This document shows, piece after piece, positions 13,157 to 48,005 of a DNA stretch of 64,000 bases (position 1 is the first letter of the stretch; each line of letters starts with the position of its first letter). Under the pieces are notes generated by a model, which saw only the letters and a program-made list of their open reading frames with translations, did not search any database and was not told the origin of the DNA. Both the position numbers and the translations under genes were made by a program. The stretch is taken from positions 1 to 64,000 of the IMG/VR virus record IMGVR_UViG_3300032272_000008; one strand, 5' to 3'. The DNA comes from a virus (Duplodnaviria; Caudoviricetes).

Positions 13157-13375
13157 TCAGGTTCCTCGATACTTAGGATGCGTAATTGCAGCCTCTATCA
13201 TTTCCATTGCAAGCAGGCGGTTCGTATGTTGTGACCTTGTAGTGTTCACACACGCCTCTATGTCACCCGGAAGGTATGTGACCTTGATACCAGACGGACC
13301 ACTGCCGACGTGCTGTCCGCCACGGTTGAAGCCGAAGGGCCAGGACTCAATCTTCAAGTGTTTTGGATCTATCAA
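13157..13375 (-). CDS. Stand-alone class I release factor domain (GGQ) protein, about 72 aa
   Basis: IDPKHLKIE..GGQHVG...GIKVTYLPGDI...RSQHTNRLLAME. TTG start at 13375 with GAGGA RBS (ORF track start 13402). Confidence 0.75.
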   Translation of the reverse strand: MIDPKHLKIESWPFGFNRGGQHVGSGPSGIKVTYLPGDIEACVNTTRSQHTNRLLAMEMIEAAITHPKYRGT

Positions 13376-13508
13376 TGTCAGGTTCCTCATATTGGGCGTC
13401 ACACTTTGGGCAACAGTTGTTATCGTTCAACTCACCGTCACCCCGGCAGTGGTCGCATCCAAAGTCGTCGTCTTCAATTGATACACCCCAGGCTTCGATG
13501 TCAGGCAC
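13347..13508 (-). CDS. Small Cys-rich (CxxC...CxxC) protein, 53 aa, not in ORF track
   Basis: AGGAG RBS + GTG; MPDIEAWG...CDHCRGDG...CCPKCDAQ. Confidence 0.6.
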   Translation of the reverse strand: MPDIEAWGVSIEDDDFGCDHCRGDGELNDNNCCPKCDAQYEEPDIDRSKTLED

Positions 13509-13517
13509 TTCTGTCTC

Positions 13518-15134
13518 CTATCGTTGAGCGCACCACTTCTGGCCACGCATTGTTACAATCGTTCGCTTGCCGTTCGAGTATGTTACAATGTGAGAATGGT
13601 TCCAGCCGGTCAGTCCGCCTCGATTATATCCTTGATCGCGGGTACAGGAATGCCCCGCAAGATAGATGCCTTCATATATGCCTGCACCATGCTTGTCAGC
13701 GATGTTGGCTTTAGGACCCATCTTGGAAAATGATTTGATGTGCCCCTTTGCCCCGTTGGCACCTTTGTCACCGTGTAGCGCGTTCTCGATGTTGCCGCAA
13801 ATAACAAATGATCCGGTGTTCGGAATGAACTGCACATTGTCGAGGTCATAGTCCTGCTTTCTGATGCCCCACTCAGCGGCGAGGAAGTTGTCTTCACGTT
13901 TCTTGATTGCTTTGTAGTAGGCAGTCTGTGCTTCAAGAAAGAACAATGCGTTGGCTGGATCGAAGCGGGTGTCGGCGGTCTTGAGCCACTTCTCGAATGC
14001 ACGGTCATGATTACTGTCGATGACGATGGACTCGCAGAACTCACGCTGAGTGCCTTCTAAGAAGCGTGCTGCATTGATGAACTCACCTTCGACGTTTGAC
14101 TTGCCGTTGATGTGCATCTTGTACCAGTGATGCGGGTCCTTGACGTTGTGATGGTTGCGTCGGCGGAAGTCAATCACATCATGGAAGAATTGGTAAACCG
14201 GTTTCAACGTATCGAGCATATTATCTTCAACCATGACGATGCTGCTGAACTCAGAGTCGTATCCCCACGATCCGATCGCCGTATCGTAGTCCAATGTTTC
14301 CGCGTGGATGTCGCCCCAGGTAATCGCCTCAACAATTCCGCTACCCTCTGTAATGGCTCCGTCTGCCACATAGTTGTTCAGATCACAGAACGCACCATCT
14401 TTGTCAGCCGCGAGGTGGCGACAGAAGAAGTCACCTTCACTATCGATCTCAACGAGCACTGCGCCGATGACGTGATGGAATTCGGCTTTGATGCCAGCCT
14501 TCTGTTGAAGGTAGTTCGGCAACGTGACGGCACCGGTTGTCATGATGATCTTTGGGTCGTCATGGAGCCGCGTGGGGACGCTTTCGAGAACCACCTTCGG
14601 GTGAGGAAGGATGGCCCACTTTTCACGCGTGTACGTCTGAAAACCAGATAGGGGATCGGTTGCAGTCGGTAGCGTGTTCATCTCACCGCAGAAGACCAAC
14701 CGGCCATCGACATCGAACCGTTCATTGGAGATGTAGTCGGCGATGTCTGGGTGATAGATCGAGACGATGTTCTTGTCTTCGCGCGCCGTCGCCTGCATGT
14801 TGTAGGTGAAGCCGCTGATGTGGATGTTAGCATTCAAGTGGGCTGCGTATGCTTTAAGGTTCTCCATGAAGCCTTCGTGCACTGCGGTGTGGGCCTGGGC
14901 CGATGAGAAGATCCAGGTTTTGACAGCTGCGCCCCGCCGAGGCTTCTTTAGAGCCACCGGCTTGTTCTGGTTTTTCGTGGTGTAGGAGGCGGTAATTTTA
15001 CGGTGTCGGCGTTGGAAAGTGACGCGGGCTATACCTAATCCCGTGGCGGCTTTGTTGAGACTGCCGTACGTCTTGACAGCTTCGAGGACTTCAGCGTCTG
15101 ACATTTTCGCCAGAACAGGATGTGGAGCGGCCAT
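13518..15134 (-). CDS. T5 A1-like metallophosphoesterase/DNase with N-terminal HTH
   Basis: N-term helix-turn-helix; SSAQ..T.VH..F, PTA.DPL.G, TTGAVT..NY..KAG.KAEFHH, WGDIH, FHD..DF..RNHH, SNHD. Confidence 0.65.
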   Translation of the reverse strand: MAAPHPVLAKMSDAEVLEAVKTYGSLNKAATGLGIARVTFQRRHRKITASYTTKNQNKPVALKKPRRGAAVKTWIFSSAQAHTAVHEGFMENLKAYAAHLNANIHISGFTYNMQATAREDKNIVSIYHPDIADYISNERFDVDGRLVFCGEMNTLPTATDPLSGFQTYTREKWAILPHPKVVLESVPTRLHDDPKIIMTTGAVTLPNYLQQKAGIKAEFHHVIGAVLVEIDSEGDFFCRHLAADKDGAFCDLNNYVADGAITEGSGIVEAITWGDIHAETLDYDTAIGSWGYDSEFSSIVMVEDNMLDTLKPVYQFFHDVIDFRRRNHHNVKDPHHWYKMHINGKSNVEGEFINAARFLEGTQREFCESIVIDSNHDRAFEKWLKTADTRFDPANALFFLEAQTAYYKAIKKREDNFLAAEWGIRKQDYDLDNVQFIPNTGSFVICGNIENALHGDKGANGAKGHIKSFSKMGPKANIADKHGAGIYEGIYLAGHSCTRDQGYNRGGLTGWNHSHIVTYSNGKRTIVTMRGQKWCAQR

Positions 15135-15194
15135 GTATTTTGTCCTTCTTATTTCAATGCGTTGGGTATATCACGTCATAGGGCCACCTGCAAG

Positions 15195-16820
15195 CTACAG
15201 GTATTTCTGGCCCATCATACGGTCAATGTTCTGCTGTCTCACGTCGAGTATTTCCACAAGTTCGGCCTCGATAGAATCCTCAATGACAAGGCGGTATACT
15301 GCGATTGGATTGAGCTTTGTAGGTAGCCACGGTCTCTCTTCGGCCTGATCGTATTCAGAGGGCACTGCTCTAGCAAACTCTGCAATGACAACGACGTCGG
15401 ATGCGGACAGTTCGATGGCTTCGGACATAGACTGGAGGTTTCCAACAATGATTCGACATGTTGGATCAGTCTGGAAACGTACTCGCTCTGCTTCGCGCTG
15501 AGAGGTTGACATGCCTCCGTATACTCGTGCGATAGTCTCAGGCGCAAATGCATCGTAGAACTTCTCAAGGGGTTCTCGGTGGTGATAGAAGACGATGACC
15601 TTGGGTTCAGTTTCAAGAATTTCGTTGATGACATCGACGACCATATCGACTTTTCTGAGAGCCAATTCACGACGGGCAACTGGCCCTTTCCCTTCGACCA
15701 TTCCGACATCATCAAGCGTAACGTCTCCGAGCTTATCTTCGCCACCGGCATTTAACATCTCTCTTAGTTTGTCCAAATTCTGTTGGAAAGCCGAGCGCTC
15801 TGTAGCGAGCAGGCGGGATAAACCAGTCTTTGGCAACAAAATAGTCTGACGTAGTGGAGGCAATTCTTCTAACACGTCGCCCTTCTCGCGGCGTATCATA
15901 AAGGTTTTCCTTAGATAGAATTGCAAGTCCTCTTCGTTTGAAGACCCGCTTGTATCGAGTCCAAACGCGCCCTTGAACGCGTTGCAATACTTGTAGATGT
16001 AGCTTTTCCAGTTGGACCCTAAACCGCTTTTGTCGAGCTTTTCGATCATAGGCCACAGCTGGATTGGTCGTGTAAAGATCGGGGTTCCAGTGAGACATAT
16101 GAAGTGTTCCTTCGCTTTGATCTTCTGGTCGCGTTTCTTGCCCTTGACCGGCTTGCCAAAGGTTATCTTTGTGCGCTTGGATTTTGGATTGCCAAGCTTA
16201 TGTGTCTCATCGCTGATCACGACATCCCAATCGATCGACGTGAGATAGTCGAAGTGCTTTTCGAGTAGCTCGAAATTGATGACCAGGAAGTCCGTCTCAG
16301 GATTGTTCGGTCCTTCGCAGTATCCCACACTCATGTCATGAACAAGCCACTCCTTCGCTTCACGGACCCAGCCCACCTTCGCGTTTGCGGGAACAACCGC
16401 CAGAACGCGTCGTGGTCGGTCGGTTTCGGGGAGTAGATTGATGACGCCGAGAGTTTGGATGGTTTTGCCAAGGCGTGGGACATCAGCGTTGAGTGAGCCC
16501 CAGCGCGACGCCATGAAGGCGATTCCTGCTTTTTGATAGTCACGGTATTCCCTTCCTGGTGGTGCGGGCACTTGGATGTCCGAAGTTACCGCAAGGCTCT
16601 CAGCGACAGCTTCTCGCTTGATGTTGATGAATTTAGAGACAACTATAGCTGTCCCGTCGTCGCAGAACTCCAAAAAAGGAACCACGCGTTCAATCTTACT
16701 TGTCCTCGCTTCGTCTCTGATCTTCAAATGAAGCCAGCCTTTGCTTTTCAGTTCAAGCAACTTCTCGGGCGATCCGGTCGCAAAGAACCGGCCACCTTTA
16801 TGTGTGATCTGGAGGGTCAT
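15195..16820 (-). CDS. SNF2-family helicase (HARP/SMARCAL1-like)
   Basis: ADVPRLGKT, VISDETH, LTGTPI, MIRREK, KVIVFYHHRE, QAEER (degenerate motif VI). Confidence 0.85.
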   Translation of the reverse strand: MTLQITHKGGRFFATGSPEKLLELKSKGWLHLKIRDEARTSKIERVVPFLEFCDDGTAIVVSKFINIKREAVAESLAVTSDIQVPAPPGREYRDYQKAGIAFMASRWGSLNADVPRLGKTIQTLGVINLLPETDRPRRVLAVVPANAKVGWVREAKEWLVHDMSVGYCEGPNNPETDFLVINFELLEKHFDYLTSIDWDVVISDETHKLGNPKSKRTKITFGKPVKGKKRDQKIKAKEHFICLTGTPIFTRPIQLWPMIEKLDKSGLGSNWKSYIYKYCNAFKGAFGLDTSGSSNEEDLQFYLRKTFMIRREKGDVLEELPPLRQTILLPKTGLSRLLATERSAFQQNLDKLREMLNAGGEDKLGDVTLDDVGMVEGKGPVARRELALRKVDMVVDVINEILETEPKVIVFYHHREPLEKFYDAFAPETIARVYGGMSTSQREAERVRFQTDPTCRIIVGNLQSMSEAIELSASDVVVIAEFARAVPSEYDQAEERPWLPTKLNPIAVYRLVIEDSIEAELVEILDVRQQNIDRMMGQKYL

Positions 16821-16849
16821 GTTACCTTGAATGCACCTAAAGGCACTTT

Positions 16850-16869
16850 ATGTTACCTTGAGGTAACAT
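16850..16869. promoter_or_regulatory. Palindromic operator-like site upstream of the SNF2-polymerase operon
   Basis: ATGTTACCT-TG-AGGTAACAT; ATGTTACCTTGA is also repeated at 16819-16830 over the SNF2 RBS/start. Confidence 0.55.
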
Positions 16870-16871
16870 TT

Positions 16872-17156
16872 TCAGTTGGCTGGGAGGATGTAATAGCGCC
16901 CTTGGATGCGCTCGACATTGTAGCGCTTGTAGAACACGCCCACTTTACAAGTCACACGAATGCGTCCCATCCCCGCTGATTCGAGTTTGTGGATGCTGTC
17001 ACAGCGGTAGCCGTCAGCTACGATTTCTTTTCTGAGACTTGCGTAGGCTTTGGCAGGGTATGCGAATGCGATCCCCACGATGCAGACGACGCAAACGATG
17101 GCCAGAACGACAGCGTAGAAGGGAGGTTTCGGCCTGACATAATATTTCGATTCCAT
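16872..17156 (-). CDS. Hypothetical protein with N-terminal TM/signal segment
   Basis: GAAAGGA RBS; hydrophobic residues 14-33; two Cys. Confidence 0.6.
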   Translation of the reverse strand: MESKYYVRPKPPFYAVVLAIVCVVCIVGIAFAYPAKAYASLRKEIVADGYRCDSIHKLESAGMGRIRVTCKVGVFYKRYNVERIQGRYYILPAN

Positions 17157-17177
17157 GGAGGTATTCCTTTCGATAGT

Positions 17178-17450
17178 CTATTCAGATGGACGGGAGATAG
17201 CAACCATGAGCTGCGCGTACATACGAGCCATGCTTGCAGTGAGGGGGTTGTGCGCAGAGTCCACGATCGTTTTCCACGTGGTTTCAGTTACCAGCTCTTT
17301 ACCGGACTCGATGTGTCGCAGCGTTTGTTTCACGCCACCGACTTCAATGGTCTGCGTGAGAGCGAAATAGGGGTACAGCAAACGCCGACGCTGGGCAAAC
17401 AATGCTGCGTTTTGGAGCTGATCGTGTAGGTCTGTTCGGCGGTCGTCCAT
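17178..17450 (-). CDS. Hypothetical protein (90 aa)
   Basis: GAAAGGT RBS; fits the operon. Confidence 0.55.
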   Translation of the reverse strand: MDDRRTDLHDQLQNAALFAQRRRLLYPYFALTQTIEVGGVKQTLRHIESGKELVTETTWKTIVDSAHNPLTASMARMYAQLMVAISRPSE

Positions 17451-17571
17451 GACTTAATACCTTTCTTTGGATTTGTGACACGGAATACCCCGCATCGAGC
17501 AACAGTCTTTCACCTTCACTGTATTTGATCAAGCCTTGTTTGATGTTTCGGATGATCTGTTCTTCTGACAC
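17344..17571 (-). CDS. Hypothetical protein (75 aa; overlaps next gene)
   Basis: Start coupled to the upstream stop; 107-nt overlap lowers confidence. Confidence 0.35.
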   Translation of the reverse strand: MSEEQIIRNIKQGLIKYSEGERLLLDAGYSVSQIQRKVLSHGRPPNRPTRSAPKRSIVCPASAFAVPLFRSHADH

Positions 17572-17807
17572 TACGGTTGGCTCACTGTCAGATGGTGGGG
17601 CACGACGGACTTGCCTGCAAAGGTCAGGATGATCACCTCACCACGCTTCAGTCTATCCAGTTCGAGTGGGTTCGGGCGATAGGCGAACTCGACGCCATCT
17701 CCACCAACATAGCCGGAAATTGTTTTGCACGGACCAAACTTGGCTTCGTCCCAGTTTCCTGGAGGACCAAATTCTACGTTGTCTTGTTCACGTCGGATGG
17801 GTTTCAT
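17571..17807 (-). CDS. Hypothetical phage protein (78 aa)
   Basis: AGGAG RBS before ATG 17807; GPPGNWD...W/F.P...EL..L..G pattern. Confidence 0.65.
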   Translation of the reverse strand: MKPIRREQDNVEFGPPGNWDEAKFGPCKTISGYVGGDGVEFAYRPNPLELDRLKRGEVIILTFAGKSVVPHHLTVSQP

Positions 17808-17914
17808 GGGAAACTCCTGTGTCTTGAGTAAAGGTCGGGAGAGGCAGGTATAGGCGACCAAACCCTCTGCACTCTCCCTTGCGCGAGGGAAAGGAATTAA
17901 ACCTCGCGCTGTTC

Positions 17915-19432: not shown

Positions 19433-19518
19433 GATGGTCCTTTCATTGGGTTGTTCTATTCTCTGACACTCTTGTACGAGCGTACCGGGCCGGTGTCTAC
19501 TTTTAAATAGACGCTTGG

Positions 19519-23939: not shown

Positions 23940-24111
23940 GCTTGCAATCGAGCAATGTTCTCTCTGCTACGTACACTGAGAAATATCCCACAGCTGCGAC
24001 GCAGCCCCATTCCAAAAGCTCAGGAAGTGACATCGGACCCAACAGAAATGTTCCCACAAGGACGCCTGCAAGACTTGCAATTACCAATGCGATTATAAGG
24101 TGCTTCAGCAT
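23899..24111 (-). CDS. Small two-TM membrane protein, coupled to holin
   Basis: Two hydrophobic helices; start overlaps the holin stop. Confidence 0.6.
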   Translation of the reverse strand: MLKHLIIALVIASLAGVLVGTFLLGPMSLPELLEWGCVAAVGYFSVYVAERTLLDCKPSGNQTPDQHPPK

Positions 24112-24518
24112 TATTCTGCCTTGTCGTCGTGAGTATGGGTTTCTGTTTTACCGTCGTTATTCTTATGAGTGTGCGGTGCGGGGCCGGGGACACTGTTCTT
24201 GTAATGGTTGCGGGCGGCTTCAGCTACCCAATCGAGAGCCTGTGTTCCGACATAACCACCAATGCCTGCGGCGATCAGTGCCCAATCCGGATTGAGCTTG
24301 AGCATGACCTGCGCGATCATGTAACCAGAGAACCCTGATACAAGTGCGTGTCCGATTAGTAGACCAAATTTAGGAGCCTGACCTGACTTGAGGTAGCTAT
24401 CCAGGTAGCGCGCAATGCCACCCATAATCGCCAGAATTACCCAAGCAAGTTCCGGCCACGATTCAAGAAATCTCATGGTGGGTGCTTTATCAAATGTTGC
24501 TGCCACAGCGTTCTGCAT
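24111..24518 (-). CDS. Holin (LydA-like, three TM)
   Basis: LAIMGGIARYL..., ALVSGFSGYM, AAGIGGYVGTQALDW; charged C-tail. Confidence 0.75.
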   Translation of the reverse strand: MQNAVAATFDKAPTMRFLESWPELAWVILAIMGGIARYLDSYLKSGQAPKFGLLIGHALVSGFSGYMIAQVMLKLNPDWALIAAGIGGYVGTQALDWVAEAARNHYKNSVPGPAPHTHKNNDGKTETHTHDDKAE

Positions 24519-24972: not shown

Positions 24973-25204
24973 CGTCAAGTGGAACTGGACCAAAATAACC
25001 AAAGCTACACTCCCGCCCGACGATCGTTACTTCATGACATGGTCGGAAGAAGACATACCCCCCGTGGCGGTGTGTCGCACCTACAAATTCGACGGGGGTG
25101 ATCGCTATATCCTCTATGCCGATGAACTTTTGTGCGATGTCGCACCAGAAGGTCCTGTTGGGGCAACCCATTGGGCAGAGTACCCGGAAGGACCTACAGA
25201 TTGA
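24962..25204 (+). CDS. DUF551-like small protein
   Basis: C-terminal THWAEYPEGP resembles the THW..LP.PP signature. Confidence 0.5.
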   Translation: MADNVKWNWTKITKATLPPDDRYFMTWSEEDIPPVAVCRTYKFDGGDRYILYADELLCDVAPEGPVGATHWAEYPEGPTD

Positions 25205-25728
25205 CAACCATCCTCTTGACTGAAGATATGATCGGCTGGGATGACCAGCTGACATTCGGCGACCAGAAGCATGCTTGCTCGTTCGAGAAAGTTTTCGTTG
25301 ATGCCAACGGTGTCTGGGCTTTTGCCGGGTCACCTTCAAATGCCTTGCGCGCTATTAAAGGCATCGTGGCGGGAGAATTCTTCACTGAAATTCCCGGCCT
25401 CATGGAGTCGGCGGTCGGCGGCGAGAATCCGTTTGAGATCTTCCGTATGTGGGAAGGCTTGGACGGCGAGCGTCACATCCGGTACTGGTCGGAAGACAAC
25501 ATCTATGGCTTCACGCCTCCGTTACCGATGGCGCTGGGCACAGGTTCCTCTTTTGTTCTCGGTGCGTACTATGGTGCGGAACGGAATGTGACCGTCGCGA
25601 TGAAGTTGGCAGTCGAGCACGACGCATACTCTGGTGGTGAAGTTCATGTGGACAGCACACTGGCGATGTGGGACAAGCACTTGTTGGCGAAGAAACGCCG
25701 CAAGGAAGCTGCGTTGTCTACAGAATAA
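25201..25728 (+). CDS. HslV/proteasome-beta-like Ntn hydrolase
   Basis: AAGGA RBS + TTG gives (M)TTI; D.Q.T, EK, FAGS, ALGTGSSFVLGA, AV.HD.YSGG.V. Confidence 0.65.
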   Translation: MTTILLTEDMIGWDDQLTFGDQKHACSFEKVFVDANGVWAFAGSPSNALRAIKGIVAGEFFTEIPGLMESAVGGENPFEIFRMWEGLDGERHIRYWSEDNIYGFTPPLPMALGTGSSFVLGAYYGAERNVTVAMKLAVEHDAYSGGEVHVDSTLAMWDKHLLAKKRRKEAALSTE

Positions 25729-25774: not shown

Positions 25775-26110
25775 ATGTCTGAAATCTTTTTCTCCACTGT
25801 TCCCTTCCCTGGTCTATCCAATGATGAAGTGATGCTGGAACCTACTTTTTCTGTAGGTGATCCGGTATGGACGTACGCGCGACGAGGTACGTCAACGCCT
25901 GAACCGATACTCGGCTTCGTGATGCATTCATTCACGATGGAGGGTCACTATCCCCCTGTGAAATATGTCGTGCAACACAACGGTGTGCTGTGTCTTCGGG
26001 ACAGCTACACGATGGCAAAGAAATTGGATGACGTGAAAGTCAAGATGCTGGCCGAGGCCAGTGATCTTCGCGCACGTGAAGCATTGAAGGAATACACTTA
26101 TGACGACTGA
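25775..26110 (+). CDS. Hypothetical protein (111 aa)
   Basis: Operon position; overlaps the primase start. Confidence 0.55.
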   Translation: MSEIFFSTVPFPGLSNDEVMLEPTFSVGDPVWTYARRGTSTPEPILGFVMHSFTMEGHYPPVKYVVQHNGVLCLRDSYTMAKKLDDVKVKMLAEASDLRAREALKEYTYDD

Positions 26111-29100
26111 GTTTGAAGTATACGGCAAGGTTGCCGACGATTTGTGGGCGCACCCGGTTGCGATCGGGATAGGGAACGGTGTCAAAGACAACATCGCGAG
26201 GGCCGCGAACGGCAACGTGGCCATGCTGCGACCGATGCTCAAGTATCGGTTCGGCGAGAAAGACGGCAAGTACATCACGCAGGCGACATTCCTCGACGAC
26301 AAACGTTCGAAGAAGCTCGCGCAGCGGTGCTCGATCATGATGTTCGACCTGGACGCGGGGCAACCTCTGGATGAGATCCTGGACGCGACAGAGAAGGTGA
26401 ACCTGTTCTCTTTTGTCTGGGCGACGTACTCGCATCGCAAGACGGTGACGGCCATCGGCGTTGACAAACTGGCTGCGTGGATACGCAAGGACCGGCCAGA
26501 GCTGGAAGATGCGCCGCTGCCTGAGAAGTGTCGTGCTTATTTGTTGGGGGCCAAGACCCGGTACGTCGAAGACATCCTGCCCGGTGATCCAGGTAACGTG
26601 GATGGCGCACATGATGGCAAATGGTATGTCGATCCGACGACACAGCTGCACGCTGAAGAAGGCGAAGCATATTTTGTTTCGCATCAGCCGGTGGCGAAGT
26701 ACCGCGTCATGTTTGTGTTGGACAAGCCGTTCGAGTTCATGGGCGTGCCAGGGAAATCACACACCGATCGTGAGCGGGATTGGGCGACGGCCTATAAGAA
26801 GGTCGGGGACGATCTGGGCTTCAATTACGACGCGGCGTGCTCTGATCCATCACGGCTCATGTACCTTCCGGCTGCTCCCAATGGGACGGTGTTGGAAGAA
26901 GGTGGTCATGAAGTGTTCGCTGCCGGTGGTGGCTTGCTTTCGTTGGACGGTGTGGTTGAGACTGCTGACGCTGAAGAGGCCGAGGTTGATTCTGTGATGG
27001 GTGCCTTTACTGGGTACGCTGAAGAGTCCGGTGTGGCCGAGACCGGCGCGCGGTTCGAGCCTAAGACGCCTGGGCTGTTCCAATTCCTCAAAGAGGTTGG
27101 GCACGAGTTCGACATCATTGGCTGGCTGATCGATGTCATGCCGGAAGACGAGATCCGCAACGGCGGAATGGAAGATGACCTGATCGAGGTGACGTGTCCA
27201 AACGAGCTGCACCACACTGGCGGCAGACGTGACGACGACTCGCCTATGTTCGCACGCTTCTCTGATGAGCACGGCTGGTGGCTGGGCTGTCGCACGGATG
27301 GCTGCACGCATGAGTTCGATGGCGACAAGGCCCGCGCACTGGATTGCTTTATCCAAGGCTGGAAGAATGCACCGCCGACTGGTGAGGCGTTGGATCTGGT
27401 GCCGACCGACTGCATGGTTGACCTGATCAAGAAAGAATGGTGTCCCGAGGCCTGGGCGCGACGGAATCCTGAAGAGGTAAAAGAAGCGGCAGAAACAGAC
27501 GTACCAAAACTGAAAGTGCCCTTGACGTCTGCTGAGTTGCAGGTGAAGGCGCTTGCGATGGTTGAAGAGATGCCAGAAGAGGCGGACATCGGCAAGCAGT
27601 CCGACATCCTGGTCTGGCCTGCAAAGACCGATGACGAGGTGGTTCACGCCATGGTGATCGATGCGATTCTGGAGAAGACCGGCAAGCGCAACAAGACAGC
27701 GCTGGTCGGTATCTTGAAAGGGTATCGGAAGCATGAAGTGAAAGCAGAGAAGCGTCGCGCGATCGATGAGAAAGCGGCAAAAAGAGCGGCAACGGGCGAC
27801 GTGAAAGTGGACAAAATCGTCTACAACGACATGCCTTGGCGTGAGCAGTTGGCTGTGTCTCGGAAGCGTCTGATCTATTTCAATCAGGCTGACCCACGTC
27901 TGTTCCAATGGATCGGGGCGGCTGAATTGTATCGTCTACGCTTGCCGAATGAAACGAACGATGTTGAAGAACGGAAATCTCATCACATGGATCGAATTGA
28001 GGTCCCGCAGATGAGCAACCTGTTGACAGATGCCGGTCTCGACTACGTGCGCATCAGTGAGAAGACAGAGCAGCATGTCTCGCCGTTCAATGACGTGACA
28101 CGATCCCTTGCGGCAGACACGACCTTCACTCAACAGTTTCCGGTGCTCGATAACATCGTGCATGTTCCGGTGTTTGGGAAGGACGGTGTGCTCATCACAG
28201 AGAAGGGGTACTCCGAAGGTAGCCGCACGTATCTGGTTCCCGACCTCGACTTCATTCCGCTGGACGTGGATGCGGTCGATCAGGCGAAGGCCGACGAGGC
28301 GCTGGCTTTCCTGTTCGAGAACGCCTTGCGTGACTTTCCGTTCTCCGACAGTTTCAGTGGTGACGACGGTGTACCGATCTATCTCAAAGAGATGGAAGAG
28401 TATGTCGATGTCGATGGTGTTGATTGCTCATTGCCGAAGCCGAATTTAGAAAGGGGTGCATCTTCTCGCACACATGCGGTGGCCATGCTGTTGCAAGCAT
28501 TCGTGCGCCCGATCATTGGTGCGAATGCCACGCCGCTGTTCCACATTGATAAGCCGGGACCGGCGTCGGGCGCAGGCTTCTTGGCGAACGTTCTCGGGTA
28601 TATCTTGACGGGACGGCCAGCACCTGCTGGTACGCTGCCAGGGAATGAAGATGAGGTCAACAAGACCCTTATGACGTATCTAATGCATGGTCGCCCGATT
28701 GTGTTTTTCGACAACATCGCGACCACCATGAAAGTAGATAGTGCATCGTTGGCGTCGGCATTGACAGACTCATCGTACAATGGCCGCGCGTTGGGTGGCA
28801 ACCAAATGGTCGACGCGGATGTCAGGAACATTTGGTTGTCGGCAGGGAACAACACACAATTTTCAGGGGAGATGGTGCGCCGCATCGTGCCGATCAAACT
28901 CGACTCCCGCGAAGAGAATCCAGAGCAACGCTCTGGCACGTTCAAGCACAACGACCTTCCTGCGCACATGGTAGCCGAGCGTGATCGTTATGTGTTCGCT
29001 TGTCATGTGCTGATCGCGTGGTGGGTGAAGTGTGGAATGAAGGACTGGAAGCACACGAAGAAGAAGAAGCTGACGTCCTTTGATAGGTTCTCTGCGGTGA

Positions 29101-29528
29101 TCGGAGGCATACTCGACTGTTGTGGTCTGGGCGAGCACTTCCTGGCAAACATTGCTGGCTTCGTCGAAGACAAATCTACTGACCGTGATGATGAGCTGGG
29201 TCTGTTGGATGCACTTGCGGACACGTACGTTCTTGGTGAGGGCTGGACGAACGACAACGTGTTCCAGAATGCAATCTGGGTGAAGCAAGATCCGTACGAC
29301 ACAGAGACGATGGGAATGGCTCCACAGATGCGTGTGTCGCTGCGCGGAATGACAGACGATTCCAAGAAGCGAGACCTCAAAAAACAGATCCTAGCGCTGA
29401 AAGGCCAGACGCGAACAGTCACTTTAATGGACGGAAGAGAGACGCAAGTGCAGATCGTGCAAACACATGAAGGCAAAAAGGGGCGCGGAAACATGGCGCA
29501 ATTCTGTCTGCGAGAGGTGGTGAAATAA
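26100..29528 (+). CDS. Primase-helicase fusion (AEP-type primase, Zn-ribbon, C-terminal P-loop-like domain)
   Basis: MMFDLD, TYSH, KYRVMF.L..PF, DAACSDPSRLMYLP; CP..HH...C..DGC; PIVFFDN, SAGNN, MVRRIVPIKLD. Confidence 0.75.
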   Translation: MTTEFEVYGKVADDLWAHPVAIGIGNGVKDNIARAANGNVAMLRPMLKYRFGEKDGKYITQATFLDDKRSKKLAQRCSIMMFDLDAGQPLDEILDATEKVNLFSFVWATYSHRKTVTAIGVDKLAAWIRKDRPELEDAPLPEKCRAYLLGAKTRYVEDILPGDPGNVDGAHDGKWYVDPTTQLHAEEGEAYFVSHQPVAKYRVMFVLDKPFEFMGVPGKSHTDRERDWATAYKKVGDDLGFNYDAACSDPSRLMYLPAAPNGTVLEEGGHEVFAAGGGLLSLDGVVETADAEEAEVDSVMGAFTGYAEESGVAETGARFEPKTPGLFQFLKEVGHEFDIIGWLIDVMPEDEIRNGGMEDDLIEVTCPNELHHTGGRRDDDSPMFARFSDEHGWWLGCRTDGCTHEFDGDKARALDCFIQGWKNAPPTGEALDLVPTDCMVDLIKKEWCPEAWARRNPEEVKEAAETDVPKLKVPLTSAELQVKALAMVEEMPEEADIGKQSDILVWPAKTDDEVVHAMVIDAILEKTGKRNKTALVGILKGYRKHEVKAEKRRAIDEKAAKRAATGDVKVDKIVYNDMPWREQLAVSRKRLIYFNQADPRLFQWIGAAELYRLRLPNETNDVEERKSHHMDRIEVPQMSNLLTDAGLDYVRISEKTEQHVSPFNDVTRSLAADTTFTQQFPVLDNIVHVPVFGKDGVLITEKGYSEGSRTYLVPDLDFIPLDVDAVDQAKADEALAFLFENALRDFPFSDSFSGDDGVPIYLKEMEEYVDVDGVDCSLPKPNLERGASSRTHAVAMLLQAFVRPIIGANATPLFHIDKPGPASGAGFLANVLGYILTGRPAPAGTLPGNEDEVNKTLMTYLMHGRPIVFFDNIATTMKVDSASLASALTDSSYNGRALGGNQMVDADVRNIWLSAGNNTQFSGEMVRRIVPIKLDSREENPEQRSGTFKHNDLPAHMVAERDRYVFACHVLIAWWVKCGMKDWKHTKKKKLTSFDRFSAVIGGILDCCGLGEHFLANIAGFVEDKSTDRDDELGLLDALADTYVLGEGWTNDNVFQNAIWVKQDPYDTETMGMAPQMRVSLRGMTDDSKKRDLKKQILALKGQTRTVTLMDGRETQVQIVQTHEGKKGRGNMAQFCLREVVK

Positions 29529-39524: not shown

Positions 39525-39529
39525 TTCAG

Positions 39530-41569: not shown

Positions 41570-41593
41570 TTTCAAACTTCCTTTCATTTCATT

Positions 41594-42709: not shown

Positions 42710-42798
42710 GCAAACGTTCTCCTTTCGTTCTTTTCTTGTGTTCTTGTCCACTGACGGGGAACCTGTTGGTCCCCCGCCTGAAGATGTGAGCGTCAGTT

Positions 42799-43498: not shown

Positions 43499-43623
43499 TG
43501 TGATATTACCCCTCCATTGATTGTTGCGCATTCCGTTCGACAATCTCACAACCGTTGTTCGCCCACAACAAGCAGATAAAAACAGGGTTAAGAACGTCCT
43601 GACAATTAGGAGCATTCATACCC

Positions 43624-45300
43624 GTGGTCGCTACAACTCGTTCCGTAAACATTTCTGACTTCAACATCGCCAACGGCGATCTTCCATCTTGGGCACATCC
43701 CGAGGTCCATTACTGGTATCCAGAGTGGCGTAAGATCCGCGACTGCGTTGCAGGTGAGCGTGCGATCAAAGACGCAGGCACTGACTATCTCGCGCAGCTC
43801 GAATCTATGGAAGGCTCAGATTACAACTCGTACCTGGATCGGGCGACGTTCTACAACTTCACTGGCCGCACAGTTGAAGCCCTGACTGGTTCCTTGATGC
43901 GCCGCCGTCCGGTGATCGACGACCTGCCCACAAAACTCAACGAACGTCTAAAAGTTGTCTCCAGGGAAAAACACCCATTCCACATGTTCTCCACGATGAT
44001 TGCTCGCGAGAACATCCAGATGGGACGCGTCGGCGTCCTGGTCGATCTCCCGCGTACTGAGACCACACAGCCTAAACCATACCTGTGCTCGTACACGTGC
44101 GAGAACATTCTGGATTGGGAAGAAGACATCGTCAACGACGAGCTGGTCCTGACAAAGGTCGTGCTCCGTGAACAGAAGCGTGTCCGCAACACCGGACAAG
44201 CCACCGGCAACTCTTCTACGATGGAGACCACGTATGTTCCTCGCTATCGTGAACTGTCGTTAGAAGAAGGCGCACAAGGTACGCACGTCTACGTCCAGCG
44301 GATCTATGAGCGTGATGACACTGCCGTAGACTTCGAACTGGTCGAGGCAAATCTTGTTGATACGATTACCCCCATGCGGCAAGGCGTGCCGCTGGATTTC
44401 ATTCCATTCTGCATTCTCGGTCCACGAGAAAGCCGGATGATGGTTGAGAAGCCTCCGATGATGGACATCGCGCGTCTCAATCTATCTCACTACCAATCAT
44501 ACGCGTGGTTGGAGCATGGGCGCTTCTTCACCGGGTTCCCGATCTACTACGTCGAAGCACCTTCAGGTGGCGACGGCAGCGAAGCAGAATTCGAGCTTGG
44601 TTCGAGCAACGTCTGGGTAACACCAGCCGGTGCGAAGCCAGGACTGTTGGAGATGAACGGCCAAGGGCTGAAGTTCCTCGCCGACGCGTTGGACCAAAAA
44701 GAATCTCAGGCAGCGAGCCTGGGTGGCCGAATGATTGGTATCCGTACGCAAGCTGTGGCTGAATCTGACAACGCGTTGAAGATGACTGAGCGCAACGAAC
44801 AATCTGTTCTGTTGCAGGTCGCGATGGCGCTCGATGCCCAGATGTCGAAGGTCCTGCAATGGTGGGCGTTCCTGTCCGGCGTATCGTTGAAAGAAGCCGA
44901 AAAGATTGTCCTTGAATACAACAAGGATTTTCTGTTCGACACTCCAGGCGCTCGCGAGTTCCGTGCAATTCACTCAATGTATCAAGATGGGGTTATCCCT
45001 GTCGATGTGATATACTCGTACTTCAAGAAGTCTTCTCTCATCCCGGATTGGATGTCACTGGAAGAATTCAAGAAGCAGCTGGATCGGGTTGAAAACTTCC
45101 CGAACAATCCAGACATCGCGGCGAAGCAGGAAGGCTTTCCTGACGCCAAGACGCAGATCGCAGTGGCCGAAGCGGAGAAAGATCGCAAAGCCACTGAGAA
45201 AGCCGCCGAAGCGACGGCAAAAGCAGCGAAGGAGGCCGCAGACAGACAACCTGTAGGAGTTCCACCGCAACAAGTACCGCCCAACGGCAATGGGCAATAG
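43624..45300 (+). CDS. Portal protein (DUF4055 family)
   Basis: W..IRDCVAGE..IK.AG..YL, YL.RA.FYNFTGRTV, GRVGVLVD, ENI.DW, N..HY...A..EHG. Confidence 0.88.
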   Translation: MVATTRSVNISDFNIANGDLPSWAHPEVHYWYPEWRKIRDCVAGERAIKDAGTDYLAQLESMEGSDYNSYLDRATFYNFTGRTVEALTGSLMRRRPVIDDLPTKLNERLKVVSREKHPFHMFSTMIARENIQMGRVGVLVDLPRTETTQPKPYLCSYTCENILDWEEDIVNDELVLTKVVLREQKRVRNTGQATGNSSTMETTYVPRYRELSLEEGAQGTHVYVQRIYERDDTAVDFELVEANLVDTITPMRQGVPLDFIPFCILGPRESRMMVEKPPMMDIARLNLSHYQSYAWLEHGRFFTGFPIYYVEAPSGGDGSEAEFELGSSNVWVTPAGAKPGLLEMNGQGLKFLADALDQKESQAASLGGRMIGIRTQAVAESDNALKMTERNEQSVLLQVAMALDAQMSKVLQWWAFLSGVSLKEAEKIVLEYNKDFLFDTPGAREFRAIHSMYQDGVIPVDVIYSYFKKSSLIPDWMSLEEFKKQLDRVENFPNNPDIAAKQEGFPDAKTQIAVAEAEKDRKATEKAAEATAKAAKEAADRQPVGVPPQQVPPNGNGQ

Positions 45301-45309
45301 GAGAAGATC

Positions 45310-45558
45310 ATGAACAAGGATTTTGAAGATGGCAGCATACCAAGCGAACAGCCAGAGCGGAAAGTTCCGCGCAAGGCAAGAAAAACTGCGCCGAAAAAAG
45401 AAGCGCGTAGTGAAGACGAAAAAGTAGCAGATGCCATCGTTAACCTTGATCTCGAAACAGACTTGGTGAAAGCCCTGGCTTGGGCTAAACGAATGAGGCC
45501 ATCCGATCGAGCGAAGATGCTTCGTCTTTCAGGTGAACACCAAGCCAAGCTCCTTTAA
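45310..45558 (+). CDS. Hypothetical protein (82 aa)
   Basis: AGGAGA RBS. Confidence 0.55.
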   Translation: MNKDFEDGSIPSEQPERKVPRKARKTAPKKEARSEDEKVADAIVNLDLETDLVKALAWAKRMRPSDRAKMLRLSGEHQAKLL

Positions 45559-45629
45559 CCGGGAGCCGAATCACGCCGCGCTCCGTCTGACACGTAAGGA
45601 GTAGGCTCAAGCTACCGTGGGGTACACAC

Positions 45630-46142
45630 ATGCAGAACGCTTTTACGCGCTTCGTCGCCCGCCGCCTGACGGGCTGGGGAGCCAACATCGTAGAGAAGCA
45701 CCAACCTGATTTCGTTATCGGAGATCCCGACGATCCCTGTCTGATCCGTTGGTGCATTTTCCCGCGCAACCGGTTCCTCAACGTCTACCTTCATCTATTC
45801 CTTCGGTCGGACGACCGCGTACTCCATGATCATCCCTGGTGGTCCTGGTCGCTCGCCTTGTCACAGGTAGCGTATGAAATCCACTACCCGATGGACGGTC
45901 CACGTGAAGATCACTTGCGGATCGTGAATTTTGGTGACTTCATACACCGTCCCGCGAAATTCACACATAGAATGGTCCTTCGTGTGAGAGAAGATGTGCA
46001 CCAACCATTCATGACGTTGTTCATCACCGGCCCCCGCCTACGGGAATGGGGTTTCTGGTGCGACAAAGGGACGCGGTTTGTCCCATGGCAAGAGTTCACC
46101 AAGAACGGTGTTCCAGGAGAAAGAGGTAAAGGCTGTGATTGA
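45630..46142 (+). CDS. Cupin-fold phage protein
   Basis: YLH.F.RSD...LHDHPW, H.., TLFITGP..R.WGF. Confidence 0.7.
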   Translation: MQNAFTRFVARRLTGWGANIVEKHQPDFVIGDPDDPCLIRWCIFPRNRFLNVYLHLFLRSDDRVLHDHPWWSWSLALSQVAYEIHYPMDGPREDHLRIVNFGDFIHRPAKFTHRMVLRVREDVHQPFMTLFITGPRLREWGFWCDKGTRFVPWQEFTKNGVPGERGKGCD

Positions 46143-46308
46143 TACCTCCAAAATCTCCCGCGTGGAAGTGATCGACCACCGAAGCGTATCCAAAACCTGC
46201 GGTCGGGTGTTCGTGGCGTGGAACGTAAGCGCTGACATGTCCGTACAGGATGATGGGCGCACTCTCAAAGTCTTCGTAAATTACAAGAAAAAGGAAAGCA
46301 CAAGATGA
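46135..46308 (+). CDS. Small phage protein
   Basis: RVEVIDH...GR..V......SVQDDGRTLKVFV. Confidence 0.6.
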   Translation: MIDTSKISRVEVIDHRSVSKTCGRVFVAWNVSADMSVQDDGRTLKVFVNYKKKESTR

Positions 46309-46754
46309 AACAACTCGACATTTTCATGGACCCGAATGTCCCACTCGACCACTTCCCCTCGTATCAAACGGAAGGCGCGGCAGGCTTCGACCTGTCCGCG
46401 TGGCTTCCGACTGGAAGCATCATCATCCCCGCGTACGAAAGCCGGATCGTCAACACTGGCATCTACATGATGATCCCTGAAGGACACGAAGTGCAGATCC
46501 GATCGCGCTCTGGCCTCGCAGGCAAACACGCGTTGTTCGTCTTGAACTCGCCGGGGACAATCGACTGCGACTACCGTGGTGAGATCCGTGTGATCCTCAC
46601 AAACATGTACACGCAGAAGTACGTAGTCGCATCTGGTGACCGGATCGCACAAGGCGTTCTGAAGGAAGCACCGCAGGCAAACCTCGTACGGGTCAACTCG
46701 ATCCGCCACGACACAGCAAGAGGGGAACACGGCCTTGGCTCTACCGGAAAATAG
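46305..46754 (+). CDS. dut: Trimeric dUTPase
   Basis: AAGFDL, QIRSRSGL, NSPGTIDCDYRGEI, DRIAQ, RGEHGLGSTG. Confidence 0.96.
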   Translation: MKQLDIFMDPNVPLDHFPSYQTEGAAGFDLSAWLPTGSIIIPAYESRIVNTGIYMMIPEGHEVQIRSRSGLAGKHALFVLNSPGTIDCDYRGEIRVILTNMYTQKYVVASGDRIAQGVLKEAPQANLVRVNSIRHDTARGEHGLGSTGK

Positions 46755-46785
46755 CAAGCAAGCAGTCGGGACCGGAAAAAACTCG

Positions 46786-46956
46786 ATGAGGCTCAACCAA
46801 GCGACGATGCAGAAGATTGTGGAGCATTGGATGGAGACACGTTTCCTGAACACTGCACATCAAGAAGTGCTCGTCACACAAGTGAAATCTACGGTCGAGG
46901 GCAACGCGCACGCGTTCGATATCGACTTCCATTGGCAGGAGCCAGTACCTAAATGA
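46786..46956 (+). CDS. Small hypothetical protein (56 aa)
   Basis: Fills the gap; coupled to the next gene. Confidence 0.45.
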   Translation: MRLNQATMQKIVEHWMETRFLNTAHQEVLVTQVKSTVEGNAHAFDIDFHWQEPVPK

Positions 46957-47237
46957 AAGCACTCGAAACCTTAGTAGGCATCGGCGTGATGACGCTCGTC
47001 TACGTCTGCATCATGGCGATGGTCACGCTCGGCGTACTCGTTGTCTCGAACCTGATGCTCTATCTCGCGCCGAACATCATTGGCCCTGGCATGGAAGTGT
47101 TCGGATCAGTCGGCGAATTCTTCCCGTCCTTCGCGGTATTGATCACGCTCCTGGCAGCATGCGTCGCGGTGGGCACGTCGGCCATCCACTTCGTCGAAGA
47201 CTTCTTCGTCGATCAAGCGGAGAAGTCCGATGGGTAG
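46953..47237 (+). CDS. Two-TM membrane protein
   Basis: AGGAG RBS; two hydrophobic helices. Confidence 0.6.
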   Translation: MKALETLVGIGVMTLVYVCIMAMVTLGVLVVSNLMLYLAPNIIGPGMEVFGSVGEFFPSFAVLITLLAACVAVGTSAIHFVEDFFVDQAEKSDG

Positions 47238-47463
47238 ACGTGTCACAGCAATCTTTGTCGCAGAATCGCGTCAAGGAAAACACACCGTCCTGGATACCGA
47301 CGAAGAACTAATCGTCGTGTTTCCTTACGGGACGGAGCGTGTTGGCATGCGTTTCGATCGATTGATCATAACCTTTCGCCACAACAGCGAGAGACAAGCC
47401 CATTGGATTCGCCGCAACAGAATGGGATTGAAGCCTGACGGTCTGCTGATTGAAACCTTTTAA
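47230..47463 (+). CDS. Hypothetical protein (77 aa)
   Basis: GGAGA RBS; overlaps the upstream stop. Confidence 0.5.
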   Translation: MGRRVTAIFVAESRQGKHTVLDTDEELIVVFPYGTERVGMRFDRLIITFRHNSERQAHWIRRNRMGLKPDGLLIETF

Positions 47464-47482
47464 CCATGAGTGACATAGCCAC

Positions 47483-47510
47483 TTGATTTTCATTTTGGCT
47501 GTGTTACAAA
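47483..47510 (+). promoter_or_regulatory. Promoter of the tmRNA gene
   Basis: TTGATT-N16-TACAAA with an extended -10 TG. Confidence 0.5.
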
Positions 47511-47516
47511 GATCTC

Positions 47517-48005
47517 GAAGACGTTGAAGCGTCATTGAACAAGAACGGATACGCCGGGGCAGTACCGGCCATCTCCACCACAAGTCTACGGAGGAACAGA
47601 AGGCAGTAGCCGTACCAGATCGAAATAGCTCAAGAAGCTCTGTGCATATGTGATACGGCCACTGCGGCGAAAGCCAAGCATGCCCGACACCGTATAATCA
47701 CCTCAACGTGTATTTCATGCTGACCGCGCGCTCTGCCGTAGACTTCTGATGGGGATGAAATAGGTTCGACCGTTTTGGGTAGTGGAGTGGAGTTTTCCGG
47801 GTGATCTCGTCATAGATCGGACTGCTTAGTTGCAAACGACAACGAGGCTCTCTTACTCGCCGCATAGCCGCGAGTGGCGCAATGGCAAGCGTAGCAACAG
47901 AAGCTCTCACTGAGAGCAGGCCAAGGGTCGCCCACCATAAATGTTTGGTGGGAATTTAGGCAACCGGGAGCAGTTGGGAATCTGCTTATCGTAAGAAACA
48001 AAATC
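47517..48005 (+). ncRNA. ssrA: Circularly permuted two-piece tmRNA (acceptor piece about 47517-47580, intervening 47581-47750, coding piece from 47751; outer ends approximate)
   Basis: T-arm GCCGG-GGCAGTA-CCGGC then CATCTCC-ACCA; GGGGATG at 47751 completes a 7-bp acceptor stem with G3.U70; TAGTT-GCA resume context; tag ANDNEALLLAA* at 47832-47867 with a stop hairpin. Confidence 0.93.

What the first reader, a model, noticed from the sequence alone, without database searches (positions are those of the whole stretch)
13157..48005. Possible phage ribosome-rescue and quality-control system: tmRNA + GGQ protein + Ntn protease
Seen: three unlinked genes whose known families act on stalled translation or its products (47517-48005, 13157-13375, 25201-25728), with no tRNA genes in the window. 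Established: several defences abort infection by cleaving tRNA or mRNA, which stalls ribosomes. Inference: the phage restores translation by rescue rather than by tRNA replacement. The functional link is unproven because the genes are not adjacent.
Basis: inference. Interest (0 to 1): 0.72.

Follow-up and report, generated by a model that had tools for sequence, protein, structure and literature searches.

The report
Phage tmRNA, mini release factor, HslV-like peptidase
A 73-kb phage of an alphaproteobacterium really does carry its own ribosome-rescue RNA (tmRNA), a bare release-factor catalytic domain and a proteasome-like peptidase and has no tRNA genes, but related phages carry these three genes in different combinations, so they look like separate genes rather than one linked rescue system.

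Summary
Observation confirmed. The window holds a full two-piece (permuted) tmRNA gene with tag ANDNEALLLAA at 47462-47958. It also holds a 72-81 aa protein that is only the GGQ catalytic core of RF1/RF2 (13157-13375/13402, minus strand), and a 175-aa Thr1 Ntn peptidase of the HslV/BPH/proteasome-beta fold (25201-25728). The contig has a 205-bp end overlap, so it is a closed genome of about 72.7 kb, and it has no tRNA gene.

The proposed three-part system is not supported. The GGQ gene is absent from all 25 capsid-related genomes tested. Its closest homologues sit in unrelated, partly temperate phages; the three of those records that could be searched have no tmRNA or HslV-like gene.

The tmRNA is a known trait of the phiCbK / DSS3-phi-8 / Lacusarx lineage. 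The HslV-like gene is a conserved member of the holin-to-primase block. Either occurs without the other. The near-complete syntenic sister genome G004 has HslV plus five tRNAs but no tmRNA or GGQ. Lacusarx, a complete 165-kb contig and Bxz1 have a tmRNA but no HslV.

The phage has no SmpB, HslU-type ATPase or RtcB. This scan has noted phage tmRNA plus GGQ combinations on other DNA before, with the same outcome. The case is ordinary to mildly interesting.

The parts
47462..47958 (+). Two-piece (circularly permuted) alpha-type tmRNA gene. The acceptor/T-arm piece ends in CCA at about 47517-47580. The intervening segment is about 47581-47750. The coding piece starts at GGGGAUG, about 47751. The tag ORF is 47832-47867 (ANDNEALLLAA, stop).
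   Evidence: ARAGORN. Rfam RF04321 75.1 bits and RF01849 71.2 bits, full length. The G3-U70 pair is read from GGGGAUG / CAUCUCC-ACCA in the alignment.
13157..13402 (-). Mini GGQ protein: only the catalytic core of class-I release factor domain 3. The longest ORF gives 81 aa; the probable start TTG 13375 gives 72 aa. The stop TGA 13159-13157 lies 1 nt before the polA ATG at 13155.
   Evidence: Pfam and PHROG hits. PDB sequence hits to RF1/RF2 residues about 214-278. Family alignment A2 with invariant WP...GGQHVG.GP.G...SQ..N..MIE. AF2 and Foldseek: best matches are RF2/RF1 domain 3, TMq 0.60-0.68. Sequence read.
25201..25728 (+). HslV/BPH/proteasome-beta-like Ntn peptidase of 175 aa with N-terminal M-T-T-I, followed by a long C-terminal helix and a basic end. 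It lies in the conserved block holin (24111-24518, minus) > small ORFs > this gene > small ORF > primase-helicase (26100-29528).
   Evidence: phrog_1040 at 3.3e-12. 24 representative relatives, nearly all aligned from residue 1. Alignment A1 has invariant K30, G43, G113, G115, D141 and near-invariant T3, D14. The profile hits BPH 5ovu at 2.7e-5 and HslV 5ji2 at 9e-5. AF2 pLDDT 93. Foldseek prob 1.0 to BPH, 20S beta and HslV. Synteny.
11119..13155 (-). DNA polymerase I gene immediately downstream of the GGQ gene (context only).
   Evidence: ORF list; junction sequence.

Best explanation
These are three independently distributed genes, not one module.

(1) The tmRNA is an intact two-piece tmRNA inherited vertically within a lineage of alphaproteobacterial siphoviruses whose capsids are related to phiCbK, DSS3-phi-8, RcXuper, Cp1R7A-A1 and Lacusarx. 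In the closest relatives it sits at the same place, between the portal and capsid genes. It must be processed, charged with alanine and delivered by host factors (SmpB, AlaRS, EF-Tu). It most likely adds trans-translation capacity in the infected cell, tagging non-stop products with a degron ending in LAA for host proteases (inferred).

(2) The mini GGQ protein is a mobile accessory gene inserted between polA and the upstream gene. It is the bare peptidyl-tRNA-hydrolysis core of RF1/RF2 with no codon-reading domains and no ArfB tail. It most likely releases peptidyl-tRNA in a codon-independent way, with an unknown recruiting partner or on split 50S subunits (inferred).

(3) The HslV-like Thr1 peptidase is a conserved gene of the replication and early block next to the primase. 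Its substrate is unknown, and it is present whether or not a tmRNA is present.

Any cooperation among the three would be incidental rather than co-evolved.
For: Each family identity rests.

tmRNA as a lineage trait: permuted tmRNAs occur in RcXuper, Cp1R7A-A1, DSS3P8, phiCbK, CcrBL9, Kikimora, XM05, Lacusarx, G005, G006, G007 and G015. In G005, G006 and G015 the gene lies a few kb from the capsid gene, as it does here. The Lacusarx paper already reports a phage tmRNA (PMC5648845).

GGQ as a mobile gene: it is absent from 25 of 25 capsid relatives. The 74%-identical homologue lies next to an integrase in a temperate phage of about 36 kb, and other homologues lie in a provirus and in an AT-rich 84-kb contig. 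The three IMG/VR records with a GGQ homologue have neither a tmRNA nor an HslV-like gene. In the sister genome G004 the polA-upstream slot holds a different ORF.

HslV-like as a block gene: the order holin > HslV-like > primase is shared by P0006-P0008 contigs, and HslV-like next to primase by XM05 and G004.

Separability: G004 has HslV-like at 143 bits and 5 tRNAs but no tmRNA or GGQ. G007 (complete, 165 kb), Lacusarx and Bxz1 have a tmRNA but no HslV-like gene by two profiles. RHEph10, phiM5, phAPEC8, phiAH14a and Shewanella 1/4 have HslV-like but no tmRNA.

The phage has no SmpB, AAA_2/HslU or RtcB.
Against: Among 11 genomes chosen only by capsid similarity, tmRNA and HslV-like go together in 5 and are both absent in 4 (odds ratio 20, Fisher p = 0.08). 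In Erythrobacter phage XM05 the tmRNA lies 0.4 kb upstream of the HslV gene on the same strand. HslUV is known to degrade some ssrA-tagged substrates (my own knowledge, not checked here). Absence calls rest on profile searches, which could miss very divergent copies. No expression or functional data exist.
Confidence: 0.7

Rival explanations
1. One reading: a three-part phage rescue and quality-control system. The tmRNA and the GGQ protein free ribosomes stalled by tRNA- or mRNA-cleaving defences, the Ntn peptidase clears the products, and this replaces carrying tRNAs.
For: All three genes are real and the genome has no tRNA. The syntenic sister genome G004 has 5 tRNAs (Leu-UAA, Thr-UGU, Glu-UUC, Met, Lys-UUU) and lacks both the tmRNA and the GGQ gene.
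Against: GGQ is absent from 25 of 25 relatives, and the three searchable GGQ-bearing phage records lack the other two genes. HslV-like is present in G004 without a tmRNA. The large relatives carry many tRNAs and a tmRNA together, so the two are not alternatives. The three genes lie in three different modules and on different strands.
Confidence: 0.1
2. A two-part link only: the phage tmRNA tags proteins for a phage HslV-like peptidase working with host HslU. The GGQ gene is unrelated.
For: Both genes are present in 8 genomes: this phage, phiCbK, DSS3P8, RcXuper, Cp1R7A-A1, CcrBL9, Kikimora and XM05. They are adjacent in XM05. In the capsid-selected set the odds ratio is 20, p = 0.08.
Against: The co-carriers are all related genomes of 131-320 kb, so shared descent and genome size explain the pattern. 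Exceptions go both ways: G004, RHEph10 and phiM5 against G007 and Lacusarx. The XM05 adjacency is the edge of a tRNA array abutting the replication block. Across all 20 genomes the odds ratio is 1.3, p = 1. The phage has no HslU.
Confidence: 0.1
3. The HslV-like protein is a virion or capsid maturation protease, or a general host-takeover protease unrelated to translation.
For: No prohead protease was recognised in the head module; only a scaffold protein (phrog_206) was found. In Sinorhizobium phage phiM5 the homologue lies between the terminase and portal genes.
Against: In this phage, in XM05, in G004 and in the short metagenomic relatives the gene lies with the primase and holin genes, not the head genes.
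Confidence: 0.1
4. The tmRNA gene is a non-functional remnant, for example an attP-type ssrA fragment from integration into the host ssrA gene.
For: Many integrative elements target ssrA (general knowledge).
Against: Both pieces, the CCA end, the G3-U70 pair and an open tag frame are present, and both Rfam models match over their full length. No integrase is found. No GTDB representative genome encodes the same tag. Intact homologues lie at the syntenic site in relatives.
Confidence: 0.03

Closest known systems
Two-piece tmRNAs of alphaproteobacterial siphoviruses (phiCbK-like Dolichocephalovirinae, DSS3-phi-8 / RcXuper group, Sphingobium phage Lacusarx; PMC5648845)
   Same: The gene order is permuted (acceptor piece first). 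It is alpha-type, with an ANDN-type tag ending in (L/I/V)AA. The phage has a related major capsid protein, 57-62% identical to those of the named large phages.
   Different: Here the genome is only about 72.7 kb and has no tRNA array. The gene lies in the head module. The tag is short (11 aa). The intervening segment is longer, about 170 nt against roughly 55-110 nt in the large relatives.
Stand-alone RF-1-domain proteins of phages (phrog_20323; annotated 'peptide chain release factor 1' in Pseudomonas phiPsa374-like phages)
   Same: A small protein consisting only of the GGQ domain.
   Different: Only about 30-35% identical. It belongs to its own sub-family with invariant WP-x5/8-GGQHVGxGPxG, and it is found in marine and alphaproteobacterial phage contigs.
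ArfB (YaeJ) / ICT1 / MTRFR GGQ rescue factors
   Same: A GGQ catalytic domain that could hydrolyse peptidyl-tRNA without reading a stop codon.
   Different: There is no C-terminal basic tail or linker. RF1 and RF2 are the best sequence and fold matches, and no ArfB entry appears among the listed hits. It is not a member of this family.
HslV, BPH and Anbu (bacterial proteasome-beta homologues); PHROG 1040 'peptidase HslV family'
   Same: N-terminal Thr, the Asp and Lys equivalents, the G-x-G motif and the alpha-beta-beta-alpha Ntn fold. The family is widespread in phages, with 152 records.
   Different: Pfam PF00227 is not reached. TM-score is only about 0.57. It has an extra long C-terminal helix with a basic end. 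No HslU is encoded, and the oligomeric state is unknown.
Translation-related gene sets of huge phages (Al-Shayeb et al. 2020, PMC7162821)
   Same: Phage-borne tmRNA and release-factor-type genes are already described there as aids to translation.
   Different: Those genomes exceed 200 kb and often carry SmpB and many tRNAs. This one is 73 kb with neither.

Membership tests
Two-piece (permuted) alphaproteobacterial tmRNA | Covariance-model match above the curated score over the full model | tested here: met
   RF04321 scores 75.1 bits against 47 and RF01849 scores 71.2 bits against 50, both end to end.
Two-piece (permuted) alphaproteobacterial tmRNA | The acceptor piece precedes the coding piece; 7-bp acceptor stem with G3-U70; encoded CCA; T-arm | tested here: met
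   ARAGORN reports 'Permuted', with the 3' tRNA domain before the 5' domain. GGGGAUG / CAUCUCC-ACCA is seen in the alignment.
Two-piece (permuted) alphaproteobacterial tmRNA | Tag reading frame with a GCA resume codon, a stop, and a hydrophobic xAA end | tested here: met
   The tag is ANDNEALLLAA* at 47832-47867.
Two-piece (permuted) alphaproteobacterial tmRNA | Processing into two pieces, alanylation and SmpB binding | not testable with these tools
   No SmpB is found in the phage, so the host protein would be needed.
Class-I release factor (RF1/RF2) | GGQ motif in a domain 3 fold | tested here: met
   GGQHV aligns to RF1 residues 214-278. Foldseek TMq is 0.60-0.68. PF00472 scores 34.7 bits, just under the cut-off of 35.
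Class-I release factor (RF1/RF2) | Codon-recognition domains 2 and 4 (PxT or SPF) and domain 1 | tested here: not met
   The protein has only 72-81 aa, and the match covers profile positions 7-71 of 116.
ArfB / ICT1 | C-terminal basic helix and linker that probe the empty mRNA channel | tested here: not met
   The sequence ends ...ITHPKYRGT right after the domain-3 helix. No ArfB entry appears among the listed PDB sequence or fold hits.
HslV / proteasome-beta Ntn hydrolase | N-terminal Thr (or Ser) nucleophile exposed after Met removal | tested here: met
   The start TTG 25201 gives MTTI. Most of the 24 relatives align from residue 1, and all 20 sequences in alignment A1 start MTT, MST, MTA or LTT.
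HslV / proteasome-beta Ntn hydrolase | Catalytic Asp17 and Lys33 equivalents and the Gly-Ser/Thr-Gly loop | tested here: met
   D14 is near-invariant; K30, G113 and G115 are invariant. The profile aligns positions 1-151 to HslV residues 1-169.
HslV / proteasome-beta Ntn hydrolase | Four-layer alpha-beta-beta-alpha fold | tested here: met
   The AF2 model has pLDDT 93.3. Foldseek gives prob 1.00 to BPH 5ovs, 20S beta and HslV 1m4y/4hnz, with TM about 0.55-0.58.
HslV / proteasome-beta Ntn hydrolase | Curated Pfam Proteasome (PF00227) score | tested here: not met
   This protein gets no Pfam hit. Only 1 of 20 family members hits PF00227, at E 0.017.
HslUV protease | Dodecamer that docks an HslU ATPase | not testable with these tools
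   No AAA_2/HslU gene is found in the phage. Use of host HslU is untested.

The most novel reading that the evidence does not exclude
In small phages of this lineage, ribosome rescue and tRNA supply are alternative counter-measures. This tRNA-less 73-kb phage would have swapped the five tRNAs of its syntenic sister genome G004 (including Lys-UUU, Glu-UUC and Thr-UGU) for a tmRNA plus a bare GGQ hydrolase, which would together clear ribosomes stalled by anticodon nucleases or mRNA interferases.
Probability: 0.1. Interest if true: 0.7.

Novelty: new member of a known kind. Interest (0 to 1): 0.3.

Why it matters
If the three genes worked together, this would be a compact viral answer to translation-targeting defences, and it could be tested genetically. 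The comparison shows instead that phages acquire translation-rescue parts one at a time. That argues against inferring a 'system' from a shared functional theme alone. Three points remain useful. A tmRNA is kept in a 73-kb genome with no tRNA and no SmpB. There is a distinct sub-family of bare GGQ mini-proteins with no known way of reaching the ribosome. And there is a conserved phage HslV-like peptidase next to the primase whose substrate is unknown.

Tried and rejected
1. Nucleotide searches of the phage collection with a 20-kb stretch and with the tmRNA found nothing useful.

2. The search for related loci with the HslV-like protein in IMG/VR found nothing. The word-based protein search found only 2-3 close homologues each for the GGQ and HslV-like proteins.

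3. The JGI contigs that carry the closest GGQ homologue could not be searched whole.

4. A degenerate-pattern scan for the exact tag ANDNEALLLAA in 185,579 species genomes found none, so no host was identified.

5. The metagenomic relatives of the HslV-like gene (P0006-P0008) lie on contigs too short to test for a tmRNA.

7. CheckV's 37% completeness was rejected as a reference-size artefact, because the contig ends overlap by 205 bp.

8. The attP-remnant reading of the tmRNA was rejected.

9. Filing the GGQ protein as ArfB was rejected because it has no tail.

10. No complex prediction was run. Nothing in the evidence warranted a binding claim.
Full report
**What the window is.** The window is the first 64 kb of a 72,927-bp virus contig. 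The first and last 205 bp of the contig are the same sequence with one mismatch, and they lie inside a ribonucleotide reductase gene. The assembly therefore closes on itself, and the genome is about 72.7 kb and complete. CheckV's '37% complete' most likely reflects its much larger reference relatives.

PHROG and Pfam annotation shows a tailed phage. It encodes terminase, portal, scaffold, major capsid and tail proteins, rIIA/rIIB, DNA polymerase I, a Dda-like helicase, a primase-helicase, RNR, ThyX, dUTPase, a holin and an endolysin. No integrase was found.

The major capsid protein is 57-67% identical to those of Microcystis phage Mwe-JY26, Rhodobacter phage RcXuper, Mesorhizobium phage Cp1R7A-A1, Roseobacter phage DSS3P8, the phiCbK-like Caulobacter phages and the Brevundimonas jumbo phages. 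This places the phage with alphaproteobacterial siphoviruses. No close nucleotide relative is in the phage collection.

**Check of the observation.** All three features exist at the stated places.

- **tmRNA.** ARAGORN calls a permuted tmRNA at 47487-47958 with tag ANDNEALLLAA*. Rfam's permuted-tmRNA and alpha-tmRNA models both match end to end above their curated scores (75.1 and 71.2 bits). The alignment shows the T-arm, the CAUCUCC-ACCA 3' end, the GGGGAUG 5' end (giving G3-U70) and the UAGUU-GCA resume context.
- **GGQ protein.** The minus-strand ORF 13157-13402 matches the RF-1 domain (PF00472 at 34.7 bits, a hair under the cut-off of 35; phrog_20323). It aligns to residues about 214-278 of RF1 and RF2, with GGQ and the RSQH-N helix intact. 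Its TGA stop lies one base before the polA ATG. An AF2 model (pLDDT 73) finds RF2/RF1 domain 3 as its best structural matches, with TMq 0.60-0.68. The protein has no codon-reading domains and no ArfB-type tail.
- **Peptidase.** The ORF at 25201-25728 starts at a TTG that overlaps the upstream stop (TTGA) and reads M-T-T-I-L-L. Pfam does not recognise it, but phrog_1040 'peptidase HslV family' does, at 3.3e-12. An exhaustive search of 1.84 billion representatives found 24 relatives, nearly all aligned from residue 1. Their alignment has near-invariant T3 and D14 and invariant K30, G43, G113, G115 and D141. These correspond to the Thr1, Asp17, Lys33 and Gly-Ser-Gly positions of HslV. The family profile hits BPH (2.7e-5) and HslV (9e-5) among solved structures. 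The AF2 model (pLDDT 93) matches BPH, 20S beta subunits and HslV with probability 1.0 and TM about 0.57.
- **tRNAs.** No tRNA gene is found in the window or the whole genome.

- **GGQ.** PF00472 finds nothing in 10 sequenced relatives: Mwe-JY26, RcXuper, Cp1R7A-A1, DSS3P8, phiCbK, Lacusarx, CcrBL9, Kikimora, XM05 and RHEph10. It also finds nothing in 15 IMG/VR contigs with a related capsid protein. The nearest GGQ homologues lie in quite different phages. A 74%-identical copy sits at the end of the late genes next to an integrase, a LexA-like repressor and RecT in a temperate phage of about 36 kb. Others lie in a provirus, in an AT-rich 84-kb contig beside NAD-salvage genes, and in a 45-kb phage. 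The three that could be searched whole have neither a tmRNA nor an HslV-like gene. In the syntenic sister genome G004, the slot between polA and the phrog_1745 gene holds another ORF. The GGQ gene is therefore a mobile accessory gene.
- **tmRNA.** Permuted tmRNAs are present in RcXuper, Cp1R7A-A1, DSS3P8, phiCbK, CcrBL9, Kikimora, XM05, Lacusarx and the IMG/VR contigs G005, G006, G007 and G015. In G005, G006 and G015 the gene lies a few kb from the capsid gene, as it does here. It is thus a vertically inherited trait of the lineage, already reported in print for Lacusarx (PMC5648845). Phage tmRNAs and release factors are also described for huge phages (PMC7162821).
- **HslV-like.** Homologues occur in 152 phage records of many kinds, including phAPEC8-like coliphages and Klebsiella, Vibrio, Shewanella, Rhizobium and Caulobacter phages. 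In this phage's own group the gene belongs to a conserved block, holin > small ORFs > HslV-like > small ORF > primase.

**The 2x2 picture.** The table counts complete or near-complete genomes.

| tmRNA | HslV-like | Genomes |
|---|---|---|
| yes | yes | 8: this phage, phiCbK, DSS3P8, RcXuper, Cp1R7A-A1, CcrBL9, Kikimora, XM05 |
| yes | no | 3: Lacusarx, G007 (165 kb, terminal repeats, 100% complete), Bxz1. The negatives were checked with two profiles. |
| no | yes | 6: G004, RHEph10, phiM5, phAPEC8, phiAH14a, Shewanella 1/4 |
| no | no | 3: Mwe-JY26, G012, G010 |

Over all 20 genomes the odds ratio is 1.3 (p = 1). Among the 11 chosen only by capsid similarity it is 20 (p = 0.08). That trend comes from the large (131-216 kb), mutually related genomes carrying both genes and the small ones carrying neither, so shared descent and genome size explain it.

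The most telling case is G004. This 74.5-kb contig is colinear with this phage and is cut inside its primase gene, so it is near-complete. It has the HslV-like gene (143 bits) and five tRNAs, but no tmRNA and no GGQ.

The only physical linkage is in Erythrobacter phage XM05. There the tmRNA lies 0.4 kb upstream of HslV, followed by the primase and an RtcB ligase. In that genome the tmRNA is the last member of an 11-tRNA array that abuts the replication block, so the adjacency looks incidental.

**Other parts a self-contained system would need.** The phage has no SmpB, no HslU/ClpX-type ATPase and no RtcB. The tmRNA must therefore use host SmpB, AlaRS and EF-Tu. The peptidase must act alone or with a host unfoldase.

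**Most likely mechanism** (inferred). The tmRNA is intact and conserved in kin, so it is probably functional. After excision of the roughly 170-nt intervening segment, the two pieces pair. The molecule is charged with alanine, enters stalled ribosomes with host SmpB and adds ANDNEALLLAA. The LAA end is the classical degron for ClpXP-type proteases (established for bacterial ssrA tags; not tested here). No GTDB representative genome encodes this exact tag, and every phage tag in the lineage differs while keeping the xAA end.

The GGQ mini-protein has the catalytic loop needed to hydrolyse peptidyl-tRNA but nothing that would place it in the A site. Codon-independent release with an unknown partner, or action on split 50S-peptidyl-tRNA (as with mitochondrial MTRFR), is the best guess.

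The HslV-like protein is most likely an active Thr1 peptidase of the early/replication block, with an unknown substrate.

**Comparison with what is known, and verdict.** Each component belongs to a kind already catalogued in phages. The combination of tmRNA and GGQ has been flagged by this scan in other phage genomes, where follow-up also found the parts mostly apart (notes e1-5867413 and e1-3600234). What is somewhat unusual here is a tmRNA kept in a small genome with no tRNA and no SmpB, and the tidy contrast with G004.

The 'system' reading is not supported by the distribution data. Interest is low to moderate.

Noticed in passing
contig ends: window 1-205 and G000:C1:72723-72927: The first and last 205 bp are identical apart from 1 mismatch and lie inside the RNR gene. 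The genome is therefore closed at about 72.7 kb, although IMG/VR calls it linear and CheckV estimates 37% completeness.
   Followed up: yes
window 47581-47750; L129:13373-13956 (G015): The intervening segment of the permuted tmRNA is about 170 nt here and about 400 nt in the close relative G015. In the larger relatives it is roughly 55-110 nt. These small phages therefore carry expanded inserts of unknown role.
   Followed up: partly
G004 (L125-L128), IMG/VR 74.5-kb contig: This is a colinear sister genome with 5 tRNAs (Leu-UAA, Thr-UGU, Glu-UUC, Met-CAU, Lys-UUU) and no tmRNA or GGQ gene. The slot between polA and the upstream gene holds a different ORF of about 150 aa.
   Followed up: partly
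L038 (Erythrobacter phage XM05, 144380-151700): The order here is an 11-tRNA array, a tmRNA, the HslV peptidase, the primase, an RtcB-type ligase and a 'protease'. This is the only genome seen with the tmRNA next to the HslV-like gene.
   Followed up: partly
window 25660-25728 and alignment A1: Many members of the HslV-like family end in a long helix followed by a Lys/Arg-rich tail (KRRKEAALSTE here; up to about 30 basic residues in others). This hints at nucleic-acid or partner binding.
   Followed up: no
window 13347-13508 (-): A 53-aa ORF with two CxxC pairs (zinc-ribbon-like) lies between the phrog_1745 gene and the GGQ gene and overlaps the GGQ start by about 29 nt. It is unclear whether it is real.
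   Followed up: no
window 7145-7645 (-) and 6397-7164 (-): A MazZ-type dATP/dGTP diphosphohydrolase N-terminal domain (PF18909, 82 bits) lies next to a ThyX-like ORF that has no Pfam hit. Whether the phage modifies its DNA bases was not examined.
   Followed up: no
window 45630-46142 (+): A gene matching the PHROG family annotated 'cysteine dioxygenase' (phrog_4786, 2e-39) lies between the portal and dUTPase genes, inside the head module.
   Followed up: no
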